From contig NC_134034.1 of the NCBI RefSeq assembly GCF_964204645.1, positions 5,058,914-5,122,913 of the forward strand: a DNA stretch of 64,000 bases, in the 5' to 3' direction. Position numbers and translations under genes: made by a program. Within the stretch, counting starts at the first letter, position 1. The number at the start of each line of letters is the position of its first letter. Below are positions 1 through 59,767 of the stretch, piece by piece. The notes below the pieces were generated by a model. That model made no database searches. It was not told where the DNA came from and was given only the letters and a program-made list of their open reading frames with translations. Source of the stretch: Tubulanus polymorphus (Eukaryota > Animalia > Nemertea).

Positions 1-981
1 CAATTAAATTTTGCTGTTTATTGTGCAACAACAGGTTGTGGAATTAGTTGGAATGATCATTTGAATAATTCTAAATATAAATTAATTCAAAGTTTATTTA
101 GATTTCATACATACTTTCAAATCAGAATAATATTAAATGAATTAGAGTTCGCTTTACCAGGATCTAGATATTTTAAAGAATTAGATAATAATATTAATTT
201 ATCAAAGTTTTATTAAATTTGTAATGAATTTAATATAGATATAAATAATTCTGATTTTAGAACAATAATTGGAACAATAAGATCACTTCCTTGCCCTAAA
301 AAGATTGCAGAATATTGTGCACTTCCCATACCATCTAATAGCTTTTATAATATCTATGATAATAAATTAGGTTATAGTAAAATAGAAACAAAGGATTTAG
401 AAACGATATAGAAATGAAGTTTTAGATTCATTAACTAATTTAGAAATTTATGTTACTGAAACTAATAATTTTAATGCAAAGATGGAAAATATATTTCATG
501 TATATTTAATTAATTTTAAAAAATTGAAAGATGAAAAACAATGGTTATTAAAATCTAATATGAAGTTTTGGCAGAACCAATTAAATTTTGCTGTTTATTG
601 TGCAACAACAGGTTGTGGAATTAGTTGGAATGATCATTTGAATAATTCTAAATATAAATTAATTCAAAGTTTATTTAGATTTCATACATACTTTCAAATC
701 AGAATAATATTAAATGAATTAGAGTTCGCTTTACCAGGATCTAGATATTTTAAAGAATTAGATAATAATATTAATTTATCAAAGTTTTATTAAATTTGTA
801 ATGAATTTAATATAGATATAAATAATTCTGATTTTAGAACAATAATTGGAACAATAAGATCACTTCCTTGCCCTAAAAAGATTGCAGAATATTGTGCACT
901 TCCCATACCATCTAATAGCTTTTATAATATCTATGATAATAAATTAGGTTATAGTAAAATAGAAACAAAGGATTTAGAAAC
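1..981 (+). repeat. 577-bp tandem duplication inside the first viral gene
   Basis: 1-404 matches 578-981, including the same premature TAA; junction at agaaac|gatataga (404/405). Confidence 0.93.
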
Positions 982-1708
982 ATTAAATTTCAATAAATTA
1001 CCGAAATTTTATGATAATTTAAAACAAGAAAACAATAATGGTTGGGTTTATTTAATTTTAAAAAATAATGAAAGTTTTACAAAATCAGGTATACAAAGAA
1101 TAAATCAATCTATTAGAACTTATTTGATATGTATTCTAGGATCGCAAGTTGAAACAAGATCCCCAATAATTGGAAATTTAAATACATCATTTGATACACA
1201 AAAACAATTCAAAGTATTATTTGAAGATTCCATTCATAATGATAAAAATAGATCGATTCCAGAAAACATTGTAAGATATCAAAATTATTTAGATAAATCA
1301 CATATTAGATTAAATTATTGTATAGGCCCTAATCTATTTATTATTTCTAATGATTTAGTATTAAAGATGGGAAACATAATTGGTTATAATAATCTAATTA
1401 AAACTGCAACAATAAATAATTCATTTGGATTGAATGATATAAATAAAAAGATAATTACTGCTCCAAAATTAATGGAAGGTGAAAAAAATAAAAAACATAT
1501 TCAATCAACAGAAACTAAAACTAATAATATTAAATTAAATAATGATTCTAAAATAAAAGATTAAAATACATCAGAAGATATAAAAACTGATAATATTCAA
1601 CATGATATAATTAAACTAAATGATGATAATAAATCCCATGAAAATACTAAATTAGCTTTAACTTGTATAGGAATTGTAATCGGAGGAATATTATATTTTA
1701 AATTTTAA
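482..1708 (+). pseudogene. Conserved Polinton-like virus protein (WQNQLNFAVYCATTGCG motif) with C-terminal transmembrane anchor, interrupted by in-frame stops
   Basis: ORFs 482-793 and 1124-1564 are in the same frame. Reading through TAA 791-793 and TAA 1562-1564 reaches HENTKLALTCIGIVIGGILYFKF* at 1708. The true start is probably upstream of 482. Confidence 0.7.
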
Positions 1709-1723
1709 TTTTTTATTATGTAA

Positions 1724-3418
1724 ATGGCAGAAGGTGGAGAAGATATTCCAATGGATCCTTTAGATGAACCTGGAATAAGTGATGAACAACCACCTGATTT
1801 TAGTGAAACAAGTTTTAATGATGATAATGAGCCCGAATATAATACTAATTTAGGTGAAGATGATGATTATGATTATGAAACGCGTAAAGAATTTAAAGAA
1901 TATATGACAGCTACCGAAAGGTTAGTTATTAGAACCTCAACATCTAGAAAGGATTTAATGGAAAGATTAGTAAATACAACTGATCCTCTTATGAAATCTC
2001 AATTAAAATTAATGAAAAATAGAGTAATATATACAATTGTTAACGTATTATTACCAAAAGATGAAATAGATGAAATTGGTCCCGAAGGTGTTGTAGAACA
2101 AATTTTAAAAGATGACCCATTTTTCATGAATAATTTAGAATTTAAAAATGATGCAGGGTATTATAATGTTGAATTAAATAACAAAAATGTATCAATTCAA
2201 TTATCTAGAATGGGTCAAGAAAATATTTTTGAACCTGGAATGCGATCAAGATCTACAATTGAAGGTTCAAAAGGCGGTAGAGAATTTCTCAGAATTATAT
2301 GGAATGCAATCGATAGAATAAATAAAAAAACCAATTCCTAAAATTGATATTAACAAATATTCACCATTTAAAAATCCAAATTTAAATTCTACTGATGTTG
2401 ATCCAGAAATGGAAGAATATGGAGATCGATCAGATAGATTAAGATCTTCAACACCCGAAACATCGAGAAGAGATATTCAACAAATTGATAATGATTCAAA
2501 TCAATTACAAGTAGTAAAAAATTTTGATAAAATGTTTGATACAATTCATTCATTTGACGAAGAGATGAATAGTATTTTAGATACACCCGGTACTGAAACT
2601 GGAATAAATCGAATACAATCTTTACTAGAAAAAGGATTTCTCAAATTAACTGATGAAGAATTAGAAACATTTCCTGAACAAGCACGTAGAGAAATTAAAG
2701 GCATTCAAGAATCAGCTGATGAAAATGCTAATATTAATATGAGATTTTCTAAAACAACCATGTTAGAAAAAGAATTAGCTATTGCAAATGAAAAATTAGA
2801 ACAATTAAAATTAGATAAAAATCTTCAATTAATCGAGGAAGCTGATTATGAAAGCAGAAAGTTAGCTTTAGAAAAAGAAATAGATGATTTAAAATATAAC
2901 ATAAAATTACAAAAAGAAGAAAGAGATACATTATTAAAATCATATGATCTTAATCATATTAAAAAATTAAAAGTTATTTTTAAAGATTTGTTGATAAAAC
3001 CAAATTCTAGAATATCATTAAAAGACAGAATAAGATTATTATTTAAGTTAGAAGGTATATAATTCTTTCAATTCTAACAGCTGTGACTATGTTATTTACA
3101 ACAATTGGTTTAGCTATATCAAATGCTTTAAAATCTACTCCTACTCCCAATAAACCAGATAAACCCCCAGATAATAATAATTCTATACAAGATAAAGTTA
3201 AAGATGGTTTAAAGAAATTAGCAAAATATTTATGGGAACTATCTAAAAAATCTGCTGCAGCATTACCAGGAATTATTGCATCAATTTTCGGTTTTATATT
3301 AAAATCTGCTGGGAATATTCTTAACTTTGCTGCTGAACATATTATTTTATTTTTAATTACAGTTGTAAGTGCAATTATTTTTGGGTTAGTAAATATGATA
3401 TCAAAAAATATCAAGTAA
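1724..3418 (+). pseudogene. Single viral gene of about 560 aa: acidic N-terminus, coiled coil, C-terminal hydrophobic/amphipathic helices; two frameshifts
   Basis: ORFs 1724-2341, 2409-3062 and 3083-3418 join through a frameshift at the A-run near 2324-2330 (the downstream frame is open from there: KPIPKIDINKY...) and a second at about 3060 (LEGI / IILSILTAVTM). Confidence 0.72.
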
Positions 3419-3458
3419 CCATGATAAAAAATAAATAATTAATTTTTTTGTTAAATAA

Positions 3459-4706
3459 ATGAGTGGGAGTTATATCAATCCTTCTAAGAATCATAGAATA
3501 TCTAATGCTATTAAAGCAGAAAGATCACATCATATAATTACTCATAACCCTTCTAATATTAATCCCGATGAAACTTTATATGTTAGAATTCCTCGATTAA
3601 CACAAAATACTTTTTATGTTCCAAATAGTATTTATTTATCAGCTGATATAAAAGTAATCGGTAATAATAATAATTATGTTGTTGATAATGTTGGAAGATA
3701 TTTGATTAAAAAATTAACAATAAAGATTGGACCAGAAACAGTTTTCTCATTAGATGATTATAATTTATTTATGCATTATAAAGATTTATGGTTAACTAAA
3801 GAAAATAGAAATAATATGATATTTCAAGGCATCCAATCAGAAAACCAAAATAAATTAAGATCTGAAGCCAATAATGCAGTAGTAACTAATGCTGTAGATA
3901 ATTTGATAAAACAGATTTATGGAAGCAAATATAAAATTCCATTAGACTTTGAATTGATAAATAACAATGCACCTTTATATAAATTCGCAATTCAAGAAGA
4001 CGTTATATTCGAAATAACATTTGCTCCTGTAAATCAAATTGTATTATCTAGCGTTGTTAAAGATATGAGTTATAAATTATCGAATATATGTTTAGAATAT
4101 GACACAGTAACTGATGAAAATATTTCAAGTATAATTCAAACTCAATACAATCAAGGATTTTCATTATTATATGATTATATTGATAAATTTAAAACTGTAA
4201 CTATTAATGCAAATGATGAAATTATTAATGAGAATATTAACTTCCCAAGAAGATCTATTAAAGGTATATTAATATTTTTTACCATTGCAACATATTCTAA
4301 TGGTGCAATACAGGTTGATGATTATTATAATCCTGAAATAACAAAAGTAGAAATAACTATCGAAGGAATAGCAAATAAAATATTTTGTCAAGGAATGAGA
4401 ATGATTGATCAATGGCCAGAAATTAGAAAACATTTTATGAATGAAAAAGTGAAATCATCTGAAAATTGTAACATTAATCAAATTGATTATTATACCGGCA
4501 ATAAATATGCATTATGGTTAGATTTTAGAACAACAGAGGATATTTCATTACATGGTTCTGGAAAAAAATTACAAAACACTAAAGATGAAATACAATTATT
4601 CATGACAAAGAATAAAGGAATCAAAAATTTCAAAATGCACATTTATGTTATATCTGACGCGCAATTAAATATTGTAAATTCACAATTAGATAGTGTTATG
4701 TATTAA
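3459..4706 (+). CDS. Probable major capsid protein (double jelly-roll type) of Polinton-like virus
   Basis: Intact 415-aa ORF, beta-strand-like alternating hydrophobic pattern, size typical of Polinton capsid proteins, next to ATPase and integrase; resembles capsid proteins of marine-invertebrate Polintons as I recall them (ITHNPS, YKDLW, LDFRT, LHGSG motifs). Confidence 0.75.
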   Translation: MSGSYINPSKNHRISNAIKAERSHHIITHNPSNINPDETLYVRIPRLTQNTFYVPNSIYLSADIKVIGNNNNYVVDNVGRYLIKKLTIKIGPETVFSLDDYNLFMHYKDLWLTKENRNNMIFQGIQSENQNKLRSEANNAVVTNAVDNLIKQIYGSKYKIPLDFELINNNAPLYKFAIQEDVIFEITFAPVNQIVLSSVVKDMSYKLSNICLEYDTVTDENISSIIQTQYNQGFSLLYDYIDKFKTVTINANDEIINENINFPRRSIKGILIFFTIATYSNGAIQVDDYYNPEITKVEITIEGIANKIFCQGMRMIDQWPEIRKHFMNEKVKSSENCNINQIDYYTGNKYALWLDFRTTEDISLHGSGKKLQNTKDEIQLFMTKNKGIKNFKMHIYVISDAQLNIVNSQLDSVMY

Positions 4707-4738
4707 AATTTTAACTTTAATAAAAAATCTTATATTAA

Positions 4739-5581
4739 ATGGAAGGAGGTAAAGTATATAAACATATTCCATACATCGATACACATGAAAATAATGATGG
4801 TTTATATTATGTAATACCTTGTAATATAGCTTTGATATTTGATCCTATTTTCAAAATTTATAAAACTAAACTAATAGAAATCGATAATAATAAAAGTGAA
4901 GTTGTTGATAATTTAAGTAATGTAATTGATAATAATGTAATACCTTCTACATCTGATAATGTAATACCTACTACATCTAATAATGTAATACCCTCTACAT
5001 CAAATAATGTAATACCTTCTACATCTAATAATGCAATAATATTAAATTTTAGTGAAAATAGAAATTATTGTGATTATTGTAAAGGCGAATTTTCAAACGC
5101 TCCATCAAATTGGAATAAACATATGAATACAAGGGTACATATAAATAATGTTATAGAACGTGTTGGTTTAAAAGAATTTATAGAACACCCATTTAGATAT
5201 GTTACAAAATTTGTTTCAAATAAAAAAGTAAATGGTGAAAAAATATATGAAGATTTTTTATTAGCAACACCTAATAAAGATGAATTAGATTTAACCGATG
5301 CTAATGAAATATTAGGATCAAACACTGTAAATGAAATATTAGGAGCAAACACTAATAAAGATAATAATGAAAATACAGGAAAGCGCATTGATAATAAAGA
5401 TTCTATGAAACTTAAATCAGAAAATAAAGATATAGTTGAGATGCCTAATAAGTATATCAATAAACCAATTATTTATGAAGATACGGTAGAGCATTTGAAT
5501 AAATTGTTAGGGGCTGATGATGAATTGGAGAGTGATGATGAAAGTGATTCAGAAATTAATCATCTAACACTCAAAAAGTAA
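4739..5581 (+). CDS. Viral protein with 8-aa repeats (NNVIPSTS x4), a C2H2-type zinc finger and an acidic tail
   Basis: 280-aa ORF; 24-bp tandem repeat at about 4930-5032; CDYC-x13-H-x5-H motif. Confidence 0.7.
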   Translation: MEGGKVYKHIPYIDTHENNDGLYYVIPCNIALIFDPIFKIYKTKLIEIDNNKSEVVDNLSNVIDNNVIPSTSDNVIPTTSNNVIPSTSNNVIPSTSNNAIILNFSENRNYCDYCKGEFSNAPSNWNKHMNTRVHINNVIERVGLKEFIEHPFRYVTKFVSNKKVNGEKIYEDFLLATPNKDELDLTDANEILGSNTVNEILGANTNKDNNENTGKRIDNKDSMKLKSENKDIVEMPNKYINKPIIYEDTVEHLNKLLGADDELESDDESDSEINHLTLKK

Positions 5582-5584
5582 TAA

Positions 5585-5940
5585 AGGTTGAAAATTGTAT
5601 AAAATAATAGTAAATAAAAAAGGGGGTTTTAAGTATTAAGGTATCTAATACGTATCTAATACATATCTAATACGTATCTAATACATATTATTTGAAAATA
5701 CCTTAAATTATATTTCTTTTTTAAATTTATATTGAAACCTCAGTAATAATAAAGGTTATTTTCAAACTTATTCATATATTTGTTGAAAAAATAAAAATAA
5801 ATTGGTTGAAAATTGTATAAATAATATTTATTTTAAAAAAGGGTTTTAAGTATTTAAGGTATCTAATAGGGTATCAGGTATTAGGGTATCAGGTATTAGG
5901 GTATCTAATAGGGTATCTAATACATAGGTATACAAATAGT
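5585..5940. repeat. Intergenic region between the convergent gene blocks, with duplicated motif and GTATCTAATA-type short repeats (candidate terminator region)
   Basis: ggttgaaaattgtataa...gggttttaagtat...ggtatctaata occurs at about 5586 and 5804; a reverse-complement homolog is present in copy C at about 58375-58492. Confidence 0.55.
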
Positions 5941-6551
5941 TATTTTATAAATTTATATTCATATGGAAATTGTAATCTCAGTAATAATTTTGAACCTTTA
6001 TTATTCTTTAATTTATTCATATATTCATCATGTTATTCAGTGGGTATAATTAGATTTTCTTCCAATGATTGTTGCATAGATTTTCTATCTTTGTTATAAA
6101 ATAAAACTAGAAATCTTATATTCTCCCTAAAGTCTTTAACAATTGAATTATATTTTTGATTTAAAACCCATGTTGTTATCCCAAAATGTCTCCCAGAGAA
6201 AGCTAAGTAACATAACTCACTTTCTCTAACTTTTGAATCATGTAAATTTGCGCAATCATCTATAATGAATAATGTATTTGATCCTTTATAAGTATCAATT
6301 GCTATTTTTATACAATTATCTAAATTTTCTTTTACTGTTTTAGGATTTAATATAATAAACTTTTTTATCTTAACTATATCTCTATTATATGTTTTATTTA
6401 TTTCATAAGTAGGACAGAATAATATTATATTATCAAAATGATTCTTATAAATAGTTTCTAACAAATCTAATATGAAATGTATTTTACCACAATTGGTTAC
6501 ACCAGTAACTAACATATTATGCGGTTTAAATATAAATAAATCTTTATTCAT
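5940..6551 (-). pseudogene. A32/FtsK-like genome-packaging ATPase with a premature stop at 6033-6035
   Basis: Walker A GVTNCGKI (T>I), Walker B LFIIDD, GRH and LNQ motifs; frame continues HDEYMNKLK...FPYEYKFIK* to 5940. Confidence 0.88.
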
Positions 6552-7630
6552 TTATTCTTTTAATTTTGATAGATAAAATCCATTCATTAAATTTATCATC
6601 ATATCCTTTATATTTCACCAAAGAATACTTTTTTCCTTTAAGAGTTTTTGTTTTCAATACTTTTTCTATTTTGTATTCTATTTCATCTGGATTTGGTACA
6701 AGTGATAATTCTTGTTCATAGAAATAACCTAATATTTCTTCATCTTTTAAATCTTCTAATTTATAAACAAAAGGTTTAGTTAATATTATCTTTTTAATCT
6801 TGAATATTTCTTCAGTAAAATTAGGGGTATAACCTTTATAAAATGTTTTTCTATATTTAGATATTCTTACGTGTTGTCCTATTTTAAATTTAGGTTCTCC
6901 GAAATCATGTGTGACAAATGCGCCATATAAATTATTCTAAACTATTTCCGAATTATCTTCTTTTCTAGCTTGTATAGGTTTCATATTTATAGAACTATGT
7001 TTAGAATTATTATAACCTTTCACTAAATTATATCGATACATCGATATATCTATATGTTTCGTTAGCAGTAAAATATTTCCACATTCTAGTTTTCAATGTT
7101 TTATTAAATCTTTCTATAATAGATGCTTTTTTATCTGAATGTGTTGAAAAATAATCTACATCGTTATCAGATAAGAGTTTTTTAAAATGTTTGTTATAAA
7201 ATTCCTTACCTTCATCAAATTGTATCTTATCTGGAGTAGCTTCTTTAAATATTGATTTAAAAGCATTTGTTACTTCTATACCAGTTTTATTTTTGATTGG
7301 AATTGACCATGCGTATCTGCTGAATATGTCTATAACATTTAATATCCAGAAATATCCTTTGTTGTATTCTTCTAAGTTCTTCATGTCAATTAAATCTGCT
7401 TGCCATGGTTGATCGATATATGAAACCATAACTTTTCTTGTTAAATAAGTTTTATCCATTTTCTTGTGGATTTGATATGTTGGTTGATTTTGTAACCATG
7501 ATTTCAATTCACTATATTTTATATTTTCATTATCAGATTTAATTTTATTCCATAATTCTGAAACGTTAGAATATGATACTTCACTTTCTGGGTTATAATA
7601 TAAATCTATTAAATATTGTTCTTTTTTCAT
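6544..7630 (-). pseudogene. Polinton-type retroviral-like (rve) integrase with C-terminal chromodomain; frameshift near 7030 and one in-frame stop
   Basis: WQADLIDM, IDIFSRYAW, QFDEGKEF and IERFNKTLK (DDE core). After the frameshift: KFKIGQHVRISK...KGYTPNFTEEIF...FYEQEL...YKIEKVL...LVKYKGYDDKFNEW. Confidence 0.93.
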
Positions 7631-7636
7631 CTTATT

Positions 7637-7996
7637 TTAATCCATTAATAATAATTTAGATTTAGTTTCAATGGTTTTATGATTTGACTTATTTTCTGGT
7701 ATGATAGGTTTATTGTCATTGGAATCATCTTTATCATCAGATTTGAATTTTGATTTATATATTACACCGGATAATATAATAATTGTGATTCACCCAATTG
7801 TAATATATAAGTAATTATTTCTTCCACTATTAGAAGAATGAGATGGATTATTATGTGAATCAATATCAGATGATTCATTTATATCAGTTAATTTCTTTTT
7901 CTTAGCTTTTTTTAATTCTGAAGATCTTTTACCTAATTCTCTTGCCCATTTAATTTGTTTCTCTGATCTAGCCTTTTTCTTAACGCTATCACTCAT
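7637..7996 (-). pseudogene. Small basic protein with a transmembrane segment, premature stop at 7790-7792
   Basis: Lys-rich N-terminus; reading through the stop gives YLYITIG*ITIIILSGVIY and an in-frame end at 7637. Confidence 0.6.
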
Positions 7997-8597
7997 TTAT
8001 TTTAGTTAATTTTTGTTCTGATTCATTTTCTGTTTCGACGTTTGGTTGTAGTACAGTGTCATCTGTTTCGTTCTTACCTGATTTATATTCCATAGGTTTG
8101 ATGTTCGAAAATGTTATGACGCCAGTAGAAATTAATGTCATAACCGATCCTAATTGATATGAAGCATAACCAACCCATTTTTGTAATTCAGTCATAACTA
8201 AATAGTCATTTTTCAAATCACTATATAATTTATTTTCATCATCAATTGGTATTAACTGGTTACATAACTTAGAGTAACATTTGACAATACCATCTGAAAT
8301 AGAATCATTTATTCGGGCTAATCTTGACTCTTCATAAATTTTAAAATGTTTTATTACTTTATCGGGTTTCATAGAGTCTAGTTCTTGAAAAGTAATGAAT
8401 CTATTTAAAAACTCCTTAGTTTTTCCACCGGCAATCAATGGTTCTAGATGGTGTTTACAATATAAATAGTATTCATAATCTATATTACAATTAACTTGAG
8501 CACAATTAGTAACAACTGTATCTTTATCATCACTTATACCCAAATCATCTAATGTTTTTTCAATATCGGCATTATTCTTACTCGATTTCTTTGACAT
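7989..8597 (-). CDS. Hypothetical helical protein of the Polinton-like virus
   Basis: Intact 202-aa ORF, TAAATG start, overlaps the next gene by 8 nt. Confidence 0.7.
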   Translation of the reverse strand: MSKKSSKNNADIEKTLDDLGISDDKDTVVTNCAQVNCNIDYEYYLYCKHHLEPLIAGGKTKEFLNRFITFQELDSMKPDKVIKHFKIYEESRLARINDSISDGIVKCYSKLCNQLIPIDDENKLYSDLKNDYLVMTELQKWVGYASYQLGSVMTLISTGVITFSNIKPMEYKSGKNETDDTVLQPNVETENESEQKLTKINE

Positions 8598-8903
8598 TTA
8601 TATTAGAGAAAAAAAGCAAAAAAAATATTATAAGTATTCTTCAAATGATACAAGTATCTCTTTGGGTTAATACTAGTTAGTTAAAGGTAAAGAATTTTAG
8701 TATTAGTTATTGTTTTTTTAGTATTTTTTTATTTGTGATATAAAGTATTCTTTTTTGAAAAGAAAATATTAAAAATATAATAGAATTCACTAGCTAGTTG
8801 AAGTTATTTTTTTTTAAATATTTTTTATTAAAAATCTATTATTCTTTAACCACTCATTAAAGACTCAACGTATTGTTCATTATTTGGATCATTGTTCCAT
8901 TGA

Positions 8904-9512
8904 TCAATAAATTTTCTTTGTCTTTGTTAACTGTTCTAAATATAATTGTAAATCTAGTTTATTAGATTTAATTATGTTTTCCTTCTTTTCTAAAGGTCTT
9001 AGATTCTTCCAATTCCAAATCAGTTTTTTATTGTATTCATCATTCATGTTAAATTTAGATATCGGTAACACGTGATCAATATGGTAATAATCCCCATAAT
9101 TATCTATATTCATTTTATCATCGAATTGAAATATAATCCATGATTTGAGAAATTCATCTGAACAACCCAACAAATTAGATAATGTTTCTGAATGTGTTTC
9201 TTTGTTGAATAATTGTGTTAATCTAGATCTTAGGCATTGTTTCAATCTAAAATTAAGATCTGTTTGATATCTTTCTCTCATATATTCTGCCATATAATAA
9301 TTATAATGTTCTATCTTATCTTCTCGATATTGTTTGGTATATAGTTTAGTGCAAGTTTTACAGCAATATTGAAAACCATCTTTGCTAATCTTACGCTTAC
9401 TAAATTCTGTTAATGATTTATCTAATTCACATTTAGAACACTTCTTGTAGTGTATATTTATAACACCAGTGTTATTTGTAATATTGATAGTTTGTGGTTG
9501 TTCTGGTTCCAT
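8904..9512 (-). CDS. Zinc-ribbon plus HNH/endonuclease VII-like nuclease of the type found in large DNA viruses; C-terminus probably frameshifted
   Basis: CSKC...CKTC zinc ribbon; LGCS, HIDHVLP and NLRPL...N..KSNK HNH-like motifs. Confidence 0.82.
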   Translation of the reverse strand: MEPEQPQTINITNNTGVINIHYKKCSKCELDKSLTEFSKRKISKDGFQYCCKTCTKLYTKQYREDKIEHYNYYMAEYMRERYQTDLNFRLKQCLRSRLTQLFNKETHSETLSNLLGCSDEFLKSWIIFQFDDKMNIDNYGDYYHIDHVLPISKFNMNDEYNKKLIWNWKNLRPLEKKENIIKSNKLDLQLYLEQLTKTKKIY

Positions 9513-9684
9513 TTATTATACGTATTTTTTACTAAATTGGTTAATATTTTAGAATCCTCTTCCATTTCTTCGACCAACGTCATCCTTTTTCATTCCTCGC
9601 CGCTTTTGATAAGTTGTTTCGATTCCTTGATATCTAAATCATACCAGTTACAATACCCGCGTCACATGCGGACATACAGGCGCG

Positions 9685-10200
9685 CTTTTGCTTAATGCGC
9701 ATGCGTTAATCATAATTATATATTCATTCTATAAATTCTGTAAAATAGAACCAACACATGCGTTACATGCGTTACGTGCGGCCATTAATGTCCGGTTTTG
9801 CTTAATGCACATGTGTTAATCATAATAGAAACAACCGACATGAAATATCTAAATAATACCACTGGGCAAACCGCTCTTATAGGAGCGTTTTTGCTTAATG
9901 CGCATGCGTTAATCATAATTATATATTCATTCTGTAAATTCTGTAAAATAGAAACGACCGACATAAAATATCAAAACGTGTTCGCACTAGGCAAAACCGC
10001 TCTTATAAGAGCGTTTTTGCTTAATGCGCATGCGCTAATCCTAATTATATATTCATTCTGTAAAATAGAAACAACTGAACATAGAAAATTCAAACGCATG
10101 TGCACTAAGCAAAACCGCTCTTATAGGAGCGTTTTTGCTTAATGCGCATGCGCTAATCCTAATTATATATTCATTCTGTAAAATAGAAACGACCGAACAT
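9685..10200. repeat. Five imperfect ~95-126-bp repeats with palindromic cores inside the virus
   Basis: gcttaatgcgcatgcg(t/c)taatc at about 9691, 9800 (variant), 9893, 10019 and 10137; cgctcttata(a/g)gagcg palindromes in three units. Confidence 0.85.
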
Positions 10201-11287
10201 AAAAATTCACCAATCAAATTTACACAATACATTATACAAGTTGTTCGGCCGTTTCTTCCAATACATCATTTGATATCTATAAATACAATTTATAATTACA
10301 AACTTTTTTCAATTGCTGGTAAATATTTAATTAACTACAACAACAAATGTTAAACTTAATCATTGGAGTCTTAATGTTTTTGAAATTCTTATATAGTTTC
10401 TTCGTCGATCTCTTGGCGATTCTTGTGTTTCTTGTGCTAATTTCTATTGGTTCGATATCCATTGCTTTTGATTCCTCAGTCAGAAAGAGTATCTTGAGTT
10501 TCTCTATCACTTCTTGATGCGTATGACGTTTTATTAATCTAAAAGATATTAGCGGCAACTCTAGCCATCTAAAAGATATACTAAATACACTTAAATATAT
10601 CTAAAGGTTTCATATTTAATAGCCCTAATAACTACAAAAAACAGTACTTACATTTAGATTTAGAATTGTAAACTATAAACTCCTAATTTCGTTTCGATAG
10701 ATAGAATATCCTGAGCACAATGTTACAGCGCCTGTTCATTTCTTGCCACGTCATCTGGTTCCGGTTCTAGAGTGTTCTCTACACGTTTGTAATATTATGA
10801 GTCATATGTCTCGGCGTCATAGTAACAGCTGTAACAGCTGTGAATTTATAGATTTATTCAATCGTTCATTACATGAAATGTATATAGGCTCAAATAGAAT
10901 CATGTTCTAGTATAAACAGCTATGCATTATTTCAATCACACTTTACTAACACTTTTAATGTTTAAACATCTATCTCACACAAATATGAATATTGAAATAA
11001 TGTTGTAAATATATACTTTTATATTGAATAATCTGTCAATTTAAATGTTATTCATTTATATGATTATTTTAGTATTTTTTATTTGTGATATAAAGTATTC
11101 TCTTTTGAAAAGAATTGTAAAAGAAAATATCAAAAATTAAAATAGAAATAATGGCTAGTTGAAGTTATTGTTTTTTTAATATATTTTATTTGAATTCTAT
11201 TTGATATCACCATGTGGGTGCCGTACGGCACCATCTCACTACTTTTGTTTTTCTATTAGGAGCAGTAATTATAACTGTCCAGATAAG

Positions 11288-11515
11288 TCATTTCGGATCC
11301 TTGATATCAAATTCCTCAACATATTGTTCATTATTTGGATCATTGTTCCATAATTCAATAAATTTCTTTGCCTTTGTTAACTGTTCTAAATATAACTGTA
11401 AATATTCTAGTTTCAATTTATTCTCTAAATGTGTTTTAGTTTTATTGTGTCTTGCTTTTTGGGATTTATCTATATTGATATTACATGTTGGGCTGTAGTA
11501 CTTATTTGCTTCCAT
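11288..11515 (-). CDS. Small protein with degenerate zinc finger, sharing its C-terminal tail with the HNH gene
   Basis: LQLYLEQLTK is shared with ORF 8904-9512; DNA 11065-11405 resembles 8715-8955. Confidence 0.55.
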   Translation of the reverse strand: MEANKYYSPTCNINIDKSQKARHNKTKTHLENKLKLEYLQLYLEQLTKAKKFIELWNNDPNNEQYVEEFDIKDPK

Positions 11516-11594
11516 TTTAATACTAAATTTTTTATTAAAATTGATTTTAGAAGTTATTCATTTATATTTTATTCATATATATGAATATTTTAAG

Positions 11595-11746
11595 AGTAAT
11601 AGGGAATAAGTTGTTTCATATCAAAGGTTGAAGGGGCGAGTGAGTAAAAAATAAAAAATAAATTCGAGTTTGCGAGAATTTATTTCTTATTTTTTATGAG
11701 CTCGACCCTTCGACCTTTGGTATGAAACAACTTATTCCCTATTACT
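11595..11746 (+). other. Terminal 152-nt imperfect palindrome (hairpin) of copy A
   Basis: The first 26 nt AGTAATAGGGAATAAGTTGTTTCATA are perfectly complementary to the last 26 nt; pairing continues to a TTTG loop. Confidence 0.95.
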
Positions 11747-12245
11747 GAGGCATACGTATCCTAAAACCCCTGTCGAAAAAATAATTTATCCCCTCTGTGA
11801 TAACAACTCTGTTGAAGACGAGAGACACTTCATTTTAGAATGCTCACATCTCTCTGTTATCAGGAATGCCCACTTTAAAACTCTCTCTGAATTTACAGAT
11901 TTCAATAACATAGGACACTCATCTAAATTTCCTTTCGTCGTGCAACCGTAATGACACTGAGATCGGTAGAACCGTCTGCAATCTCGTGAACGAACTTTTA
12001 AATTTCGTTCCTTGAGTTGAATTGAGAGATGCTACACATTGCTACTGTATTAGTTTTAATTCAATTGTATCCATTTGTCTTAATGTTCTTTTTCTCTTTC
12101 ACATATTTTAAATTGCATGCTGTTTAATTGTTTTTTATTTGTTTCCATAATTGTATTTGTATATTGTTTACTTTATTGATATGTAACTAATGCGTTTTCT
12201 TGTATACGTACGGAACAATAAAGTATTGAATTTAACTGAATTTAA
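11747..12245 (+). mobile_element. 3' fragment of a non-LTR retrotransposon (LINE)
   Basis: Degenerate C-terminal CCHC region (PLCDNNSVEDERHFILEC), T-rich 3' UTR, AATAAA and tgaatttaa tail repeats. Confidence 0.7.
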
Positions 12246-15228: not shown

Positions 15229-16161
15229 TCAACAGCAGATTTTCATACAGAAATATTCACGAATTTCTCGTCCCAGTAAAAGGTATAAGTAGAAATTTAC
15301 CACATAGTTACACATAGTAAAGTGAATGAAAATGTCATAAAGAAATGCTCTCTGCTCGTGTGAGATTGGTGACAATGCAGTTAAAGTTGATGGAAGTGTG
15401 AATGTCGCAAATGCGAGTGAAACTGTTACAAGCATTATTGTGGTACGTTTTGATTTTGTAGTTTTCTGATCAGACGAAACCATTTTCAAAGCTTTGAATA
15501 ATTGAACTATTATAACAAAATTTGATGTTATTATTAAACATAACGGTAGAATATACGTGTATATCACAAATATAGAGAAACTCATTATTCGGTCAATTAA
15601 TTTATAGTAACATCCAAACGATGGATCTTTAAAATGTATCGACAAAGCAGGGCTAAGATATAGAACCAGAACGTTAGCCCCAGTAATTATCAACGTAGTA
15701 TATCGAGCGAATTTCGGTGTACATATCAAACGAGAGGTGACGGGGAAGAGCACAACTGCCGCACGTTCTAGAGATATTGCTACTATTAACCACGAGCTAT
15801 TAGCGAGTGCAAGTGACAGTGTAAATCCATTTATTTGACAACTGATCAGTGAATTCATGATATATATGGGACCATCTTTAACGTAAAAGAGAACAAACTG
15901 TAAAACAGGCAACAGTGTATAAATGGAACAGTTAATGGAATCAGTGACTGACGAAATGATAAGATAGTTTGAGTAAGACAAACTGCGGAATCTGTGACTT
16001 ATCATGATCAGAAAAGTAGCTGAATTTCCGAAGGCTCCAAACAGAAACCAGATTGGCAGAATGGCCAATAACACGATGCGGTAGATTCCAGATCTGTTGA
16101 CCACAGACATGACAACGATGTTACTGTATGTTCGACCAATTTGAATATTAGTTGAATTCAT
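15229..16161 (-). CDS. Single-exon rhodopsin-class (class A) GPCR, peptide-receptor-like/chemoreceptor-like
   Basis: 310 aa, seven hydrophobic segments, N-terminal N-glycosylation site, GN in TM1, TM3 cysteine, SLER (DRY-like), TLP in TM6, NFYLY (NPxxY-like), C-terminal CC. Confidence 0.9.
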   Translation of the reverse strand: MNSTNIQIGRTYSNIVVMSVVNRSGIYRIVLLAILPIWFLFGAFGNSATFLIMISHRFRSLSYSNYLIISSVTDSINCSIYTLLPVLQFVLFYVKDGPIYIMNSLISCQINGFTLSLALANSSWLIVAISLERAAVVLFPVTSRLICTPKFARYTTLIITGANVLVLYLSPALSIHFKDPSFGCYYKLIDRIMSFSIFVIYTYILPLCLIITSNFVIIVQLFKALKMVSSDQKTTKSKRTTIMLVTVSLAFATFTLPSTLTALSPISHEQRAFLYDIFIHFTMCNYVVNFYLYLLLGREIREYFCMKICC

Positions 16162-17489: not shown

Positions 17490-17636
17490 AGTAATTGTAT
17501 AAATGGGGGTTCATACCAAAGGTCGAAAGGGCGAGCTCATTAAAAAAAATTCTCGCACCCTCGAATTTATTTTTTTAAATTTTTCACTCACTCTCCACTT
17601 CAACCTTTGATATGAACCCCCATTTATACAATTACT
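17490..17636 (-). other. Terminal hairpin of copy B
   Basis: AGTAATTGTATAAATGGGGGTTCATA ... TATGAACCCCCATTTATACAATTACT; inner core homologous to copy A. Confidence 0.95.
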
Positions 17637-17750
17637 CTAATAATTCCATGTATATGAATATCATATATATGAATAACATATATAAATGAAAATCATATTC
17701 ATGAATGATATATAAATGAAATCAATTTTAATAGAAAATTTGTTATTAAA

Positions 17751-18116
17751 ATGTAGAGTAAACAAGTACACAGTGAGAACAAAAAATCATTCTTAGAAAG
17801 AATTAAAGATACTACAAATGTCAAATCTGTAGATTATAATTTCAAAAAGTTAACAGAATTAACATTACATAAGAAATATTTAATCACAAATATTGAAACA
17901 ATTACTACTAGGTATGGTAACAAATTAGTTATTCACTAAGAATATGAAGGATTGAAAGGAAATAAATATAAATTCAGAACATATTTACTAGATAGATTTC
18001 ATAGATTATCTAGTGAAGATATTGAAGAAGTGTGTTCTGGTGATTTCTATTTTATACATTAAGATAAGAATGAAAAAGGGCACCATGATATAGATTTCGA
18101 ATATAAAGTTATGTAA
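17751..18116 (+). pseudogene. Small viral protein, possibly OB-fold/ssDNA-binding-like, with three in-frame stops
   Basis: Single frame M*SKQ...FKKLTELTLHKKYLITNIETITTRYGNKLVIH*...FRTYLLDRF...; not in the ORF track; the fold is a guess. Confidence 0.5.
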
Positions 18117-18135
18117 AATCAATTTTCATGAAATA

Positions 18136-18410
18136 AAAAGTAACGAGTAATTAACGAGTTGATAAAAATAAGCTTTCTTAACTAAAAACATAGTAAATAA
18201 TCAAATTTTTGAATATACAAAGTGACGAGTAATTAACGAGTTGATAAAAATAAGCTTTCTTAACTAAAAACATAGTAAATAATCAAATTTTTGAATATAA
18301 AAAGTAACGAGTAATTAACGAGTTAATAAAAATAAGCTTTCTTAACTAAAAACATAATAAATTAATCAAATTTTTAAATATAAAGAGTAACGAGTAATTA
18401 ACGAGTTGAA
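18136..18410 (+). repeat. 82-bp tandem repeat, about 3.3 units (core TAACGAGTAATTAACGAGTT x4)
   Basis: Cores at 18141, 18223, 18305 and 18388; one reverse-complement core at about 59530-59549. Confidence 0.9.
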
Positions 18411-18445
18411 GAAAATATCAATTTTAATGAAAAAATTACTAATAA

Positions 18446-18995
18446 ATGAATGAACAGATACTGCAATTCAAAGATATCGATTTACATGAATTCGAAAAAA
18501 AAAATTTTACAATTAAACATTTTATTCCTATTCAAGATTTGATTAAAACTGCACGTGTTCGTTTCCAAGTGAATAATATTACTGAATGTTTAAAAATCAT
18601 TATCTAATGATAGGGTTATCTAATGAAAAAGATAAAATCTTCAATACAATAATTCCAAAATTCACAACATTTGATGAAATAGTTAAACATTTAATAATTA
18701 CAGATGAAATACGATCACTTTTTAATAATGAAAATTCACATAAAACATTATTTTTACACTTACGTCATTGCCCTTTCAGAGAATGCTATGTAATGTTTTT
18801 CAGAGTACAAAAAAAACATTTATCCCTGACATTCCAAATGAAAAATCATTCAAAGATGTGGGAATTCAATGTAATTTAGACAATAACATCCAAACACCTA
18901 AATATGAACCTAATGAAAAAGCGTTATGTAATTGTGGAAAATATTATGCTCGAAGCAATAAATCACATTATCTCAAATCAAAATATCATAACTAA
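18446..18995 (+). pseudogene. Frameshifted viral protein with C-terminal CxC...H...H zinc finger
   Basis: ORFs 18586-18879 and 18768-18995 (LCNCGKYYARSNKSHYLKSKYH); homologs at 21142-21369 with 23050-23212, and at about 59300-59417. Confidence 0.65.
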
Positions 18996-19079
18996 AAAAT
19001 AATAATTCAACTCTTAATATTCATATATTCAGATATTTCAAATTAGTTATCAATCTTTTAATTTTTTTTCCTTAAATAA

Positions 19080-19303
19080 ATGAATGAGAATGATTTCAGC
19101 ATTCAACTGGAAAAAGTGATTTAAAACATTATTTACTTGCTGGAGGTTTAATATTGGCTGCGCTTTATTTTTACTATGAGAATATCAGTAAGGATCTGAT
19201 GAATGAAAATGTGAAATTGAGTAAGAAATTAAAGAAATTAAATGGAAATCATGAAAATAAAAAGAATAAAAAAGTTAATTTAGAAAATGATTTAGAGGAT
19301 TAA
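19080..19303 (+). pseudogene. Small single-TM/coiled-coil protein, frameshifted in this copy
   Basis: Homologous to open ORFs 20785-21078 and 58872-59090 (SDLKHYLVAGGLILA). Confidence 0.65.
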
Positions 19304-19369
19304 GAATTAATTAATTAAGGATTAAGCGTCTTTTAATTTAATATATTTTTTTATATTTTAACTATAAAA

Positions 19370-19657
19370 ATGAGTGAAAATATATTAAATTTATAAATAA
19401 TATTTACAGAAATCAAGAGCGCATTAAGTTGATTATAATGGTTTCTGGATTAGTTTCATTTTCAGTTCATAGTTTGAAACAGTTATTGGATTTATTTGAT
19501 GACTGTAAAATTAAATATCTAGAATTAAAAGATAATATGAATTAAATTTCAGATAGATTGAATAATATTAAGTGTTGTGAAATATGCAATAAGAAGTATA
19601 AAAATTCAAAGAGTTTAAGAAATCATAAATATATTCACGAATTAAATGATAAATAAT
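19370..19657 (+). pseudogene. Small protein with hydrophobic segment and C2H2 zinc finger
   Basis: ...IKLIIMVSGLVSFSV...CEICNKKYKNSKSLRNHKYIH; homolog at about 58520-58811 on the minus strand. Confidence 0.6.
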
Positions 19658-20320
19658 ATAATTCAAATTAAGTTTTTTAATTTATTCATATATGATATTG
19701 TGATTCTTTAGGCGGCACTAAAATAATACAAGAGTGATACTAAGTTAGTTGGTTTATTAAAATTCTTATTCAATTCTAGTTAAATGTAAAGTAATTTAGT
19801 GTTAACAAGAATTGAATAAAAAACATTAAAAAAAACAATAAGATTCTTAAACATTACTAACTTATAGAAACAATAATTAGTATCATTCTTTAGAATTATA
19901 TCATAATCTAGTGCTGAATAAAGAATATGATATTCATCTGATAGATTCATTGTAATATTCTTTCCATAATGATAAAAATAAATATATATTTGAATGTAAT
20001 TTATAACTTTCCAGTGTTGAAATATAAAATACATTGGTAGAAAATATAAATTATATTAGCTGAAAGTACAAAATATATTAGTTAAAAATATGAATATGTT
20101 AGAATTTAGAATGTGTATAAGTGTACGAGTGTACGAATTGGAAGAATTGTACGAGTTTGATTTTAAGTTATTTTATCAATTTCATACCATATTTAAATAT
20201 TATTTCAATAAAATAAGATATTTCAATTAATACCCCCTTGTGTCTTTATTGTCTTTAGTACTTTTAGTACAGAAAGAATATATGTTTATATTATTAGTAC
20301 TTAGAAAAAAAAACATATAT

Positions 20321-23049: not shown

Positions 23050-23222
23050 AAGGGCAATGACGTAAGTGTAAAAATAATGTTTTATGTGAATTTTCATTAT
23101 TAAAAAGTGATCGTATTTCATCTGTAATTATTAAATGTTTAACTATTTCATCAAATGTTGTGAATTTTGGAATTATTGTATTGAATAAGATTTTATCTTT
23201 TTCATTTTTCATTAGATAATGA

Positions 23223-23335
<113 letters not shown>

Positions 23336-23339
23336 TGAT

Positions 23340-24062: not shown

Positions 24063-24089
24063 TATTAGGACTTTTACTATGTGTGATCG

Positions 24090-27682: not shown

Positions 27683-27739
<57 letters not shown>

Positions 27740-29769: not shown

Positions 29770-29823
<54 letters not shown>

Positions 29824-57659: not shown

Positions 57660-59767
57660 AGTACATAGATATATAATTTAGTTTTTATAATTTGAATTAT
57701 ATAATGTTTCAAATTTTATTTCATAAATTTATAAAATTGATAAAATAACTTAAAATCAAACTCGTACTGTTTTTTTCAATAAAAAACATATATAAATTAT
57801 ATATTATCACACCCGTACCATTCGTACACTCATACACTTATACACATTCTAAATTCTAACATATTCATATTTTTTAACTAATATATTTCTTATTTTCAGC
57901 TAATGTAATTTATATTTTCTACCAATATATTTTATATTTCAACACTGGAAATGTATAAATTATATTCAAATATGTATTTATTTTCATAGTAATATATAAA
58001 ATCTATCAGATGAATATCATATTCATTACACAGCACTAGAATATGATATTTATCTTTAAAATGATACTAGTTATTGTTTCTAATTGCTAACTGGGTTAAA
58101 TAATATTTTGAATAGATTCAATAAGAAAAACAATAACTTAAATAATTAAGTTTTAGTTATAGAAACCTATTGTTTTTCTAATGTTTTTCTATTAATTCTT
58201 ATTAATACTAAATTTCTTTACATTTGACTAAAATAATACTAGAAAAACAATAAACTAACTAACTAAGTATCACTCATATTATTCTAGTACTGCCTAAATA
58301 TACTACCAATATCATATTTGAATTAATTACTTCTGAGACTTCAATATTTCAGAAATAAAGCGTAATTTGTATAAGGTACGTATTTAATACGTATTAGATA
58401 CCATTAATACCTATAACCCCTTTTTAATGAAATATTATTTTTACACTATTCTATACATTTTCGCCCAATATATTTTATTTTTTCAACCAATTTAACAGTC
58501 TATTTCTTATTTTGATTCATATAATTCATCATTAAGTTCGTGAATATATTTATTATTTCTTAATGTTTTTTTTCATTTTTATACTTTTTATTACAAATTT
58601 CACAACACTTAATATTATTCAATCTATCTGATAGATAAAATTTATATTATCTTTCAATTATGTATATTTAATCTTGCAATTATCATAGAAATCCAATAAC
58701 TGTTTCAAACTATAAACTGAAAATGAAACCATTCCAGAAACCATAATGATTAACTTAATGCGCTCTTGATTACTAATAAAATTTAATAAATTTAATATAT
58801 TTTCACTCATTTTTATAGTTAAATTTTTGTAGTTAAAATATATAAAATAAATTAAATTAAACGATTCTGTCTTAATCCTCTAAATCATTTTCTAAATTAA
58901 CTTTTTTATTCTTTTTATTTTTATTATTATTTCCATTTAACTTCTTTAATTTCTTACTTAATATCATATTTTCATTCATTAGATCCTTACTGATATTTTC
59001 ATAATAAAAGTATAATACGGCCAATATTAAACCTCCAGCAACTAAATAATGTTTCAAATCACTACTTCCGGTTGGAATGAAACCATCCATTTATCTAAGA
59101 AAAAAAATGAAAAAATAAAAAAAATATTTACTAGTTTTTGATTTAATATTTTATAACCATTTTTGAAGTATTAAACTTTAAGATGATTAAATCTAATAAC
59201 AATTAAACAGTTATTCGTTAACTAATTTCACAATATTTTAACTATTATATATTTGAAACATACAGCTTAATCTTATTTCAATATATAATTATTATTCTTT
59301 TCATATTTGATATGTTTATTGGTTTGATAATGTTTTGATTTATGTGATTTTTAAATATTTACCTCCGCAATAACAATATATTTTTTCATTAGGATTGAAT
59401 TTTCTAAAATGTTCATTTTATAACAAAACTGTTATTAAAACTCATTCAAATATAAATATTCAATGTTAAAATATGAATTATTTCTCACACTTTACTCACA
59501 CTTTTATGTTAAAAAATCTAATTTTAATCAACTCGTTAATTACTCGTTAATTTCACACTTTACTCACACTTTGCTCACATTTTCATGATTAATACAAAAA
59601 TAATTTATAATTTATTTTAAAATATATGAAATTCATGTAAATAATGTTCATATATATATGAATATTATTAGAGTAATAGGGAATAAGTTGTTTCATATCA
59701 AAGGTTGAAGGGGAGAGTGAGCTCGACCCTTCGACCTTTGGTATGAAACAACTTATTCCCTATTACT
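57660..59767 (-). mobile_element. Copy C: hairpin-ended fragment or non-autonomous relative of the virus
   Basis: Reverse-complement homolog of copy B (TM protein ORF 58872-59090, zinc-finger remnants); ends in the A-type hairpin. Left boundary approximate. Confidence 0.85.
59672..59767 (+). other. Terminal hairpin of copy C (96 nt, tip deleted)
   Basis: Outer arms identical to copy A; the inner segment between the two TGAG motifs is missing. Confidence 0.95.

What the first reader, a model, noticed from the sequence alone, without database searches (positions are those of the whole stretch)
1..11746. Integrase- and capsid-encoding Polinton-like virus that ends in a long fold-back hairpin
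Seen: capsid-like gene, packaging ATPase, rve-chromodomain integrase and HNH genes, with the element ending in a 152-nt palindrome whose last base pairs flush with its first. Known: classical Polintons have TIRs starting AG/AGT and are thought to replicate by protein priming (pPolB), whereas self-priming hairpin ends are typical of parvoviruses and poxviruses. Inference: this may be a Polinton-like lineage whose 3' ends fold back and self-prime. No pPolB is visible, but the left part of the element is outside the window.
Basis: partly seen in the sequence, partly recalled or inferred. Interest (0 to 1): 0.88.

Follow-up and report, generated by a model that had tools for sequence, protein, structure and literature searches.

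The report
Hairpin-ended Polinton with poxvirus-like promoters
A virus-like jumping element in what is likely an animal genome ends, in many copies, in a conserved fold-back DNA hairpin, but the stump of a DNA polymerase gene sits right beside it, so the family likely still copies itself by protein priming and the hairpin likely acts as a self-contained start site, not as the primer.

Summary
The 152-nt palindrome (11595-11746) is the true element end. It recurs at two other relic ends in the window, its arms co-vary (9 paired positions, all Watson-Crick), and raw reads show about 100-fold depth with many different outer flanks. Capsid (double jelly-roll), A32 ATPase, rve-chromo integrase and an endonuclease VII-like gene are confirmed. 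The 'no pPolB' premise fails. The gene starting 79 nt inside the hairpin is the first 38 codons of a Beta-type PolB fused to an endonuclease tail, so this copy likely lost its polymerase. Close relatives carry full-length PolB with terminal-protein-like, vOTU, exonuclease and catalytic motifs. No flip/flop mix or snap-back joint appears among the read rows shown. Best reading: a protein-primed Polinton whose displaced strand folds each 3' end into a local duplex origin. Unexpectedly, 48 of 59 gene starts in this clade read TAAATG with a T at -9/-10, like poxvirus late promoters, hinting at a helper virus. Terminal palindromes are published for protist virophages/PLVs, and this scan noted similar Polinton ends on other DNA (e1-9076766, e1-9371185, e1-637947). 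New variant of a known kind.

The parts
11595..11746 (+). Terminal palindrome of element A, 152 nt; outer 26 bp perfect, inner G-T pairs at arm positions 27 and 35
11516..11594 (-). 79-nt spacer or promoter region between hairpin and first gene; homologous in all three window copies
   Evidence: read depth equal to the hairpin's
11402..11515 (-). 5' stub (38 codons, zinc-finger-like) of a Beta-type PolB gene; the rest of the gene is absent in this copy
   Evidence: 752 reads leave the window's sequence at 11402
11064..11413 (-). Second copy of the 3' end of the endonuclease VII-like gene and its downstream spacer, fused in frame to the PolB stub
   Evidence: 90% and 81% identity to 8713-8960
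9632..10209 (.). Imperfect tandem repeats (about 118-203 nt period), GC-richer, role unknown
8904..9512 (-). Endonuclease VII/HNH-like gene, open frame, TAAATG start
7989..8597 (-). Conserved gene of unknown function (60-72% to L001, L003, L005)
6547..7630 (-). rve integrase with C-terminal chromodomain, frameshifted near 7030
5943..6551 (-). A32/FtsK-type packaging ATPase with one internal stop
5580..6025 (.). Repeated spacer between the two convergent gene blocks; related sequence in relic C
4739..5581 (+). ORF of unknown function with internal 24-nt repeats; homologues in L001, L002, L005
3459..4706 (+). [quoted passage not shown]
2607..3406 (+). Frameshifted conserved coiled-coil/membrane gene (homologue of L003:4328-5782; 'GasderminX-like' is a recalled label, not tested)
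407..1693 (+). Conserved virion-module gene with two stops (68% to L003:2996-4321); 1-404 is an exact duplicate of 578-981
11747..11752 (+). First six bases of host flank (GAGGCA); candidate TSD, untestable
17490..17636 (-). Terminal hairpin of relic B, opposite orientation; both arms differ from A in concert at 9 paired positions
17784..18101 (+). Broken small gene just inside hairpin B, homologue of L003:125-466; SSB-like by weak leads only
17637..20232 (.). Body of relic B (degraded, AT-rich; 19053-20232 shared with relic C)
59672..59767 (+). Terminal hairpin of relic C, outer arms identical to A, central part deleted
57686..59671 (.). Body of relic C (degraded, AT-rich)

Best explanation
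This is the degraded right part of an integrated Polinton-type DNA virus whose end is a conserved 152-nt palindrome, and the family likely replicates by protein priming while the hairpin likely rebuilds a double-stranded origin at each single-stranded 3' end. Shown: capsid fold, ATPase, integrase, exact end at 11746, many insertion sites, co-varying arms, a PolB 5' stub 79 nt inside the hairpin, and full-length PolB in relatives. Inferred: (1) copy A lost most of its PolB gene in a deletion that joined the stub to an endonuclease tail; (2) intact members have the hairpin at both ends, one facing PolB and one facing the small SSB-like gene as in relic B; (3) after excision or strand displacement the 3' end pairs with the inner arm, making a flush duplex of at least 26 bp with the same sequence as the genome's duplex end, which polymerase plus terminal protein, and the integrase, can recognise without pairing the two distant ends; (4) protein priming copies the end letter for letter, so the hairpin keeps one orientation; (5) occasional trimming and fill-in on the folded end, or selection on the protein-bound duplex, keeps the outer arms matched while inner mismatches persist. 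The TAAATG starts suggest, more weakly, transcription by a poxvirus-like helper's RNA polymerase.
For: Residues 1-38 of the ORF at 11515 match only the N-termini of four 1,319-1,365-aa PolB proteins (P0159 E 4e-10, P0153, P0274, P0154) among 282 held proteins, and nothing in six frames of 51 loci; residues 39-75 match the endonuclease tail. 752 reads leave the window at that same junction with one majority continuation (agreement 0.94). L008 holds capsid (54%), endonuclease and a PolB C-terminal part on one contig. L003's ATPase, a second L003 gene, its kinase and capsid clusters and PolB P0157 all have a longest contig of 16,883 nt; P0157's cluster mate P0274 is full-length. In 14 of 14 aligned PolBs a Ser-Gly pair upstream of an invariant Cys/His pair is kept, as expected for terminal-protein and vOTU domains (PMC11161782, passages). 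One orientation in 3 of 3 window copies; none of the four diagnostic flip letters at 11621, 11629, 11712, 11720 is among the 40 variant rows shown, and no end-to-inner-flank strand switch among the 15 joints shown. Arms co-vary at 9 paired positions between A and B and at 4 pairs in the read table. The 3'-end strand, the template for initiation, folds 4-6 kcal/mol better in all three copies.
Against: No full-length element with both ends was seen, so hairpin plus intact PolB in one molecule is inferred, not shown. The 16,883-nt link rests on equal contig lengths, not on DNA read here, and none of the 51 loci reaches an end or shows the hairpin. The stub is a short zinc-finger-like motif and the 282-protein control set is biased. 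The terminal-protein domain is assigned by motif only, without a fold. The ends read AGTAAT in 3 of 3 copies, not the exact (AGT)2 or (AG)3 repeat reported for vertebrate Mavericks (PMC8097293), which fits a slide-back initiation less well. Three of 24 possible flip letters do appear among the rows shown (11669, 11686, 11697), each without its mirror partner, and 90 rows are hidden. In Halocafeteria, palindromes go preferentially with non-pPolB elements.
Confidence: 0.55

Rival explanations
1. Self-priming: the 3' end folds back and is extended directly, and the closed end is later opened by a nick (candidates: the endonuclease VII-like gene or the endonuclease VII-like insert in PolB), possibly asymmetrically so that one orientation is kept.
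For: Flush 3' pairing and perfect outer 26 bp; 3'-strand folding bias and homogenised outer arms, as proofreading at a folded 3' end would give; an endonuclease VII-like gene in the element and a weak such domain in PolB; the same model is proposed for protist virophages and a PLV (10.64898/2026.07.28.741278, section 7); the end hexamer is not a perfect slide-back repeat.
Against: PolB stub beside the hairpin and conserved Ser-Gly and Cys/His motifs in its closest full-length matches; no flip/flop mix or snap-back joint among the rows shown; no HUH or helicase family hit among the 12 window and 13 L003 ORFs scanned; endonuclease VII domains are common in PolBs generally.
Confidence: 0.2
2. The hairpin has no role in starting replication. 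It is a duplicated end made once by fold-back repair and kept for integrase binding, packaging or protection of single-stranded ends, or refreshed by repeated fold-back conversion.
For: The inner arm is a copy of the tip; relic C has lost the centre and still kept both outer arms; the protist preprint names accidental annealing as an alternative; vaccinia hairpin mismatches act in packaging (PMC8956199, passages).
Against: Pure accident does not explain concerted change of both arms in separate subfamilies, fixed G-T pairs, or a hairpin on essentially all ends laid (hairpin depth about equal to inner-flank depth).
Confidence: 0.2
3. The palindrome is an independent miniature inverted-repeat element or a small-RNA gene that happens to lie at the element's end.
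For: 152-nt size with matching termini; G-T pairs would suit an RNA; weak miRNA-family matches.
Against: The inner flank is shared by 3 of 3 window copies while the outer flank differs; read depth on the inner flank equals that on the hairpin; all 8 Rfam matches are far below their gathering scores; the better-folding strand points out of the element, against the neighbouring gene.
Confidence: 0.05

Closest known systems
Beta adintoviruses / animal Polintons-Mavericks (PMC8502044, passages and part 1 of section 3; PMC8097293, passages; PMC11131425, passages; 10.1101/2023.08.22.554363, passages)
   Same: Double jelly-roll capsid, A32/FtsK ATPase, rve integrase, ends beginning AGT, and in relatives a large PolB that does not match pfam03175, as described for the Beta class.
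   Different: The end is a 152-nt palindrome; the words 'hairpin' (all four papers) and 'palindrom' (three searched) have no occurrence in their main texts. The end hexamer is AGTAAT, not (AGT)2. No adenain protease was seen in the parts held. Gene starts carry TAAATG.
Endogenous virophages (subtypes 1, 2, 5, 6) and PLV subtype 4 of Halocafeteria seosinensis (bioRxiv 10.64898/2026.07.28.741278, section 7 and passages)
   Same: Palindromes at the extremity of the element, next to the host flank, in rve-integrase elements; hairpin priming proposed.
   Different: Protist host; 52-nt palindromes in subtype 5; preferentially non-pPolB elements. Here the host is likely an animal, the hairpin is 152 nt, and a PolB stub lies beside it. 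No covariation or orientation test appears in the passages read.
Poxvirus hairpin telomeres and late promoters (PMC8956199 and PMC11980589, passages)
   Same: Imperfect terminal hairpin; TAAATG overlapping the start codon with a conserved T about 10 nt upstream.
   Different: Poxvirus ends are covalently closed and occur as equal flip and flop forms; here the end is an integrated open palindrome in one orientation among the data shown.
Entomopoxvirus-associated PLVs (PMC11296320, passages)
   Same: Small capsid-encoding elements of animals proposed to parasitise a poxvirus.
   Different: Two of those use a primase-helicase and tyrosine recombinase; the paper has no occurrence of 'promoter' or 'TAAAT'.
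Adenovirus panhandle origin and parvovirus rolling-hairpin ends (recalled, from no call)
   Same: Adenovirus: a displaced strand rebuilds a duplex origin for protein priming. Parvovirus: a 3' terminal hairpin.
   Different: Adenovirus pairs the two distant ends, here one end can do it alone. Parvoviruses need an HUH nickase and mostly invert the hairpin.

Membership tests
Polinton/Maverick (Beta adintovirus type) | [quoted passage not shown] | tested here: met
Polinton/Maverick (Beta adintovirus type) | FtsK/A32 packaging ATPase | tested here: met
   Pox_A32 E 3.5e-11; one internal stop in this copy
Polinton/Maverick (Beta adintovirus type) | rve integrase | tested here: met
   rve E 1.3e-9; frameshifted here; open frames in L001, L003, L005
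Polinton/Maverick (Beta adintovirus type) | Protein-primed PolB | tested here: inconclusive
Polinton/Maverick (Beta adintovirus type) | Termini begin with AG/AGT | tested here: met
   3 of 3 window ends; boundary confirmed by reads
Polinton/Maverick (Beta adintovirus type) | Inverted repeats at both ends | not testable with these tools
   Left end outside the window; no genome held. Relic B shares about 250 nt with A's end and faces a different gene, which fits but does not show it
Polinton/Maverick (Beta adintovirus type) | 5-8 bp target-site duplication | not testable with these tools
   Only one flank known for each copy
Polinton/Maverick (Beta adintovirus type) | Adenain-like maturation protease | tested here: inconclusive
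   No protease family among 12 window and 13 L003 ORFs scanned; both elements incomplete
Polinton/Maverick (Beta adintovirus type) | [quoted passage not shown] | not tested
   L003:565-1326 is a candidate by recall only; no Pfam or PHROG hit
Vertebrate Mavericks (not filed here) | End hexamer (AGT)2, (AG)3 or (AC)3A | tested here: not met
   AGTAAT in 3 of 3 against PMC8097293
Parvovirus/poxvirus-type hairpin replicons (not filed here) | Flip and flop forms of the hairpin in about equal amounts | tested here: not met
   One orientation in 3 of 3 copies; four diagnostic letters absent from 40 rows shown, 90 hidden. Integrated copies only
Parvovirus/poxvirus-type hairpin replicons (not filed here) | Covalently closed or snap-back ends | tested here: inconclusive
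   No such joint among 15 shown, 40 hidden; free genomes may be absent from the sample
Parvovirus-type replicons (not filed here) | HUH nickase/helicase gene | tested here: inconclusive
   None among the ORFs scanned; left part missing
MITE (not filed here) | Occurs by itself with unrelated DNA on both sides | tested here: not met
Helper-dependent (virophage-like) elements | Promoters matching a nucleocytovirus late motif | tested here: met
   TAAATG at 48 of 59 starts, T at -9 in 44 of 48; vaccinia late motif per PMC11980589. Sequence match only
Helper-dependent (virophage-like) elements | Expression and replication only with a helper virus | not testable with these tools
   No helper known; no RNA data

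The most novel reading that the evidence does not exclude
An animal Polinton clade has turned into a virophage-like parasite of a poxvirus-type large DNA virus. Its genes are read from poxvirus-style late promoters in the helper's cytoplasmic factory, and its hairpin ends let each end start replication on its own, by its terminal-protein polymerase or, in copies that have lost PolB like this one, by fold-back priming with borrowed enzymes. It would be a living intermediate between protein-primed and hairpin-primed replicons, present in about a hundred integrated ends in one genome.
Probability: 0.2. Interest if true: 0.86.

Novelty: new variant of a known kind. Interest (0 to 1): 0.62.

Why it matters
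How Polintons start replication has not been shown experimentally in the papers read; the standing model pairs the two distant ends. A many-copy family with a conserved terminal hairpin and, likely, an intact protein-priming polymerase makes the question testable: orientation of the hairpin across copies, chemistry of the 5' end, and need for the inner arm each give a yes/no answer. It also extends terminal palindromes from protist, mostly non-pPolB elements to a likely animal, likely pPolB-bearing clade, which weakens the simple rule 'palindrome = hairpin priming'. The clade-wide poxvirus-type start motif points to an unrecognised helper virus and a virophage-like way of life in animals.

Tried and rejected
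No whole genome is held, so the left end, both-end symmetry and target-site duplication were out of reach; the loci's records are not held either. Five scans of viral contigs (capsid twice, integrase, ATPase, an 18-nt hairpin motif) found nothing. The one genome-contig scan gave 11 distant integrase loci (39-45%) without the hairpin. None of 51 loci shows the hairpin or reaches an element end; they are 1-11 kb fragments, so this is no evidence of absence. Read depth over the body of the element was not obtained, so the number of capsid-bearing copies is unknown. No RNA holder listed. First polymerase probes (L008, L025) found nothing in the window; only the closer full-length proteins revealed the stub. 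L025's ORF had no Pfam, PHROG or PDB sequence hit; its PolB identity rests on motifs and on homologues, some with PF03175 and one named DNA-directed DNA polymerase. The SSB label for the small gene stays a lead: Atlas neighbour with Phi29_Phage_SSB at 0.87 on 44% of members, model pLDDT 78.7, Foldseek rows mostly OB-fold but none at E<=0.001 in PDB and two unnamed or uncharacterised at E<=0.001 in BFVD; the wide structural search did not run. Rfam gave only sub-threshold matches. The capsid tree is the quick version; three rows from broken frames (L028-L030) are long branches and were not relied on. Rejected: independent MITE or RNA gene; head-to-tail junction of two ends (that would put the termini in the centre, here they are outside); Helitron-type end (recalled features absent); TAAATG as a mere product of low GC (present at 44% GC in L008, absent at 30% in L011).


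Full report
The window's first 11.7 kb are AT-rich (22-31% GC) and gene-dense, followed by host DNA that is likely animal (a rhodopsin-family GPCR at 15232-16164, E 1.4e-10). No genome is held, so the left part of the element cannot be read.

The hairpin is real. 11595-11746 is 152 nt, begins AGT, ends ACT, pairs flush, and has a perfect outer stem of 26 bp; 30 shuffles gave at most 14 bp. Two more copies lie in the window, at 17490-17636 (B, reversed) and 59672-59767 (C, centre deleted), each at the edge of an AT-rich relic. In all three the inner flank is homologous and the outer flank is not. Between A and B nine paired positions in the outer stem differ on both arms and all remain Watson-Crick, while the G-T pairs at arm positions 27 and 35 are the same in all three; the strand carrying the 3' end folds better each time (-58.8/-52.5, -41.8/-36.5, -42.5/-38.4 kcal/mol).

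Raw reads confirm the boundary and the copy number. Run X5 (12% read, a different study from the best contig holders; whether it is the source of the window is unknown) laid 9,600 reads on 11380-11870 at 85% likeness. Depth, both mates summed, is about 2,000-2,600 on the inner flank, 1,900-3,000 on the hairpin and 12-18 beyond 11753: roughly a hundredfold, a rough figure because the flank may itself be repeated. 649 reads run past 11746 into unlike sequence (agreement 0.36), i.e. many insertion sites. 546 reads leave the inner arm after its tenth base and 1,268 leave the outer arm 20 bases before the end, so further arm variants exist. Of 18 variant rows shown inside the hairpin, eight form four compensated pairs, two exchange G-T and G-C, one turns a pair into G-T, three lie in the loop, one removes a mismatch of copy A, and three have no partner among the rows shown. 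Equal depth on hairpin and inner flank rejects an independent small element.

The 415-aa ORF has 773 homologues and folds as a double jelly-roll capsid. ATPase and integrase are confirmed by Pfam but carry a stop and a frameshift. 8904-9512 is endonuclease VII-like. Forty metagenome loci encode related capsids; L001, L002, L003 and L005 (71-75%) share most genes, and the window's capsid falls with P0001-P0006 in one supported group of a quick tree.

The polymerase is not simply missing. A search with the PolB part that lies beside capsid and endonuclease genes in L008 returned 385 longer proteins. Four of ten tested hit the window at one place, 11515-11402, 79 nt inside the hairpin. The ORF there is a chimera: residues 1-38 match the N-termini of P0159, P0153, P0274 and P0154, the only hits among 282 held proteins; residues 39-75 match the tail of the endonuclease gene, and 11064-11413 duplicates that gene's 3' region. 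At the same junction 752 reads leave the window's sequence with one majority continuation. So copy A most likely lost its PolB by an internal deletion. These four polymerases keep exonuclease and catalytic motifs (P0159 has a variant motif B), and in 14 of 14 aligned proteins a Ser-Gly pair precedes an invariant Cys/His pair, which fits the terminal-protein and vOTU domains described in PMC11161782 (passages); this assignment is by motif only. L003 itself shows no PolB in 11.5 kb, but its ATPase, another of its genes, its kinase and capsid clusters and PolB P0157 all list a longest contig of 16,883 nt, and two other capsid/PolB pairs match likewise (12,994 and 10,208 nt). This is indirect.

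Orientation speaks against simple hairpin transfer. Parvovirus-type transfer (recalled) and poxvirus resolution (PMC8956199, passages) invert the hairpin and give flip and flop forms. All three window copies have one form. Of 24 asymmetric positions, the four that are conserved in A, B and C show no flip letter among the 40 rows displayed, whose shares inside the hairpin go down to about 0.23; three other flip letters do appear, each without its mirror partner. No joint from the end back onto the inner flank is among the 15 displayed. 90 variant rows and 40 joints are hidden, and only integrated DNA was seen, so this disfavours but does not exclude self-priming.

Mechanism. The best-supported reading is a protein-primed Polinton in which the single-stranded 3' end folds onto the inner arm and so rebuilds, locally, a duplex identical to the genome end. 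This accounts for the flush pairing, the perfect and co-varying outer stem, the strand bias, the fixed orientation and the neighbouring PolB. Relic B puts the same hairpin in front of a different gene (60% to P0127; a homologue lies at the left edge of L003), which suggests hairpins at both ends. Against it: no complete element was seen, and the end hexamer AGTAAT is not the perfect repeat reported for vertebrate Mavericks (PMC8097293, passages). Confidence 0.55; self-priming 0.2; a non-replicative role or by-product 0.2; independent element or RNA 0.05.

A second feature emerged. In ten clade loci (one per near-identical pair) plus the window, 48 of 59 ORF starts of 100 aa or more read TAAATG, with T at -9 in 44 of 48 and at -10 in 36 of 48; TAAATG makes up 2-11% of ATGs overall in these loci. 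For the capsid gene alone, of 23 loci looked up 13 have it, 8 do not, one is ambiguous and one gave no start; it is present at 44% GC (L008) and absent at 30% (L011). Several loci are near-duplicates, so independent counts are lower. Vaccinia late promoters are described as TAAAT(G) over the start codon with a conserved T ten bases upstream (PMC11980589, passages). L003 also encodes a deoxynucleoside kinase. This suggests transcription by a poxvirus-like helper, as virophage promoters match their helpers, but it is a sequence match only.

What is known. Terminal palindromes next to the host flank, with hairpin priming proposed, are described for virophages and one PLV of a protist, mostly in non-pPolB elements (10.64898/2026.07.28.741278, section 7). 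Nine library searches (listings seen) and term look-ups in four animal Polinton papers showed no report of terminal hairpins or TAAATG starts in animal Polintons; the library lacks most subscription journals and Repbase, no supplements were read, and bioRxiv supplements are closed. 10.64898/2026.10.13.758929 (passages) marks palindromic repeats in a figure I could not see. This scan has noted similar Polinton ends on other genomes (e1-9076766, e1-9371185, e1-637947); these are unchecked notes, seen after my reading was formed, and are not independent support. Notes on Polinton RNA hairpins prompted the Rfam control.

Verdict: observation confirmed, interpretation partly supported. It works like a Polinton and meets every Polinton feature that could be tested decisively; PolB in cis, both-end symmetry and target-site duplication remain open. 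New variant of a known kind, interest 0.62.

Noticed in passing
window 1-981: 1-404 is an exact copy of 578-981: a 577-nt tandem duplication inside a gene, either very recent or an assembly artefact.
   Followed up: no
window 9632-10209: Four to five GC-richer imperfect repeats inside the element, each with a GCGCATGCG-type palindromic core (resembles an NRF1 site, recalled); not found in the related loci examined by protein search.
   Followed up: no
window 18590-19282 and 20875-23376: An inverted second copy of part of relic B (93%), itself interrupted by a 1.7-kb insertion with repeated ends and by a (TA)n run at the centre of a small palindrome (23187-23376).
   Followed up: partly
window 18117-18460: Four 82-nt tandem repeats in relic B whose core motif also occurs once near the end of relic C; possibly a subterminal binding site.
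   Followed up: no
window 55720-55845 and 59795-59920: 126-nt inverted arms (96%) enclosing relic C, with related short repeats at 57424-57577: C seems to sit inside another inverted-repeat element.
   Followed up: no
window 11747-11951; 23348-24114; 33956-34339: Host retroelement fragments by their look (recalled, not scanned): a LINE-type zinc-finger tail right of the hairpin, a Penelope-like GIY-YIG piece, a LINE reverse-transcriptase piece.
   Followed up: no
window 26189-30367 and 47210-48515: Near-identical tandem duplications of 2,090 nt (99.7%) and 651 nt (99.8%).
   Followed up: no
L003:10343-10981; L007:2898-3380; P0148: Relatives carry deoxynucleoside or thymidylate kinase genes, in P0148 apparently run on from the PolB C-terminus (PF01712); unusual cargo that would suit cytoplasmic replication.
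   Followed up: partly
L001:3684-3875; L002:3092-3181; L003:9082-9359; L005:3183-3255: Inverted repeats in the spacer behind or between gene blocks in close relatives (30-bp perfect arm in L005); candidate terminators.
   Followed up: no
L041-L051: Polinton-type integrase contigs filed inside bacterial MAGs in the genome collection; likely eukaryotic or viral contamination of those bins.
   Followed up: no
P0156, P0182: Two PolB homologues carry precomputed PF14528 and PF14890 (LAGLIDADG/intein-type families, names recalled), i.e. probably intein-containing Polinton polymerases.
   Followed up: no
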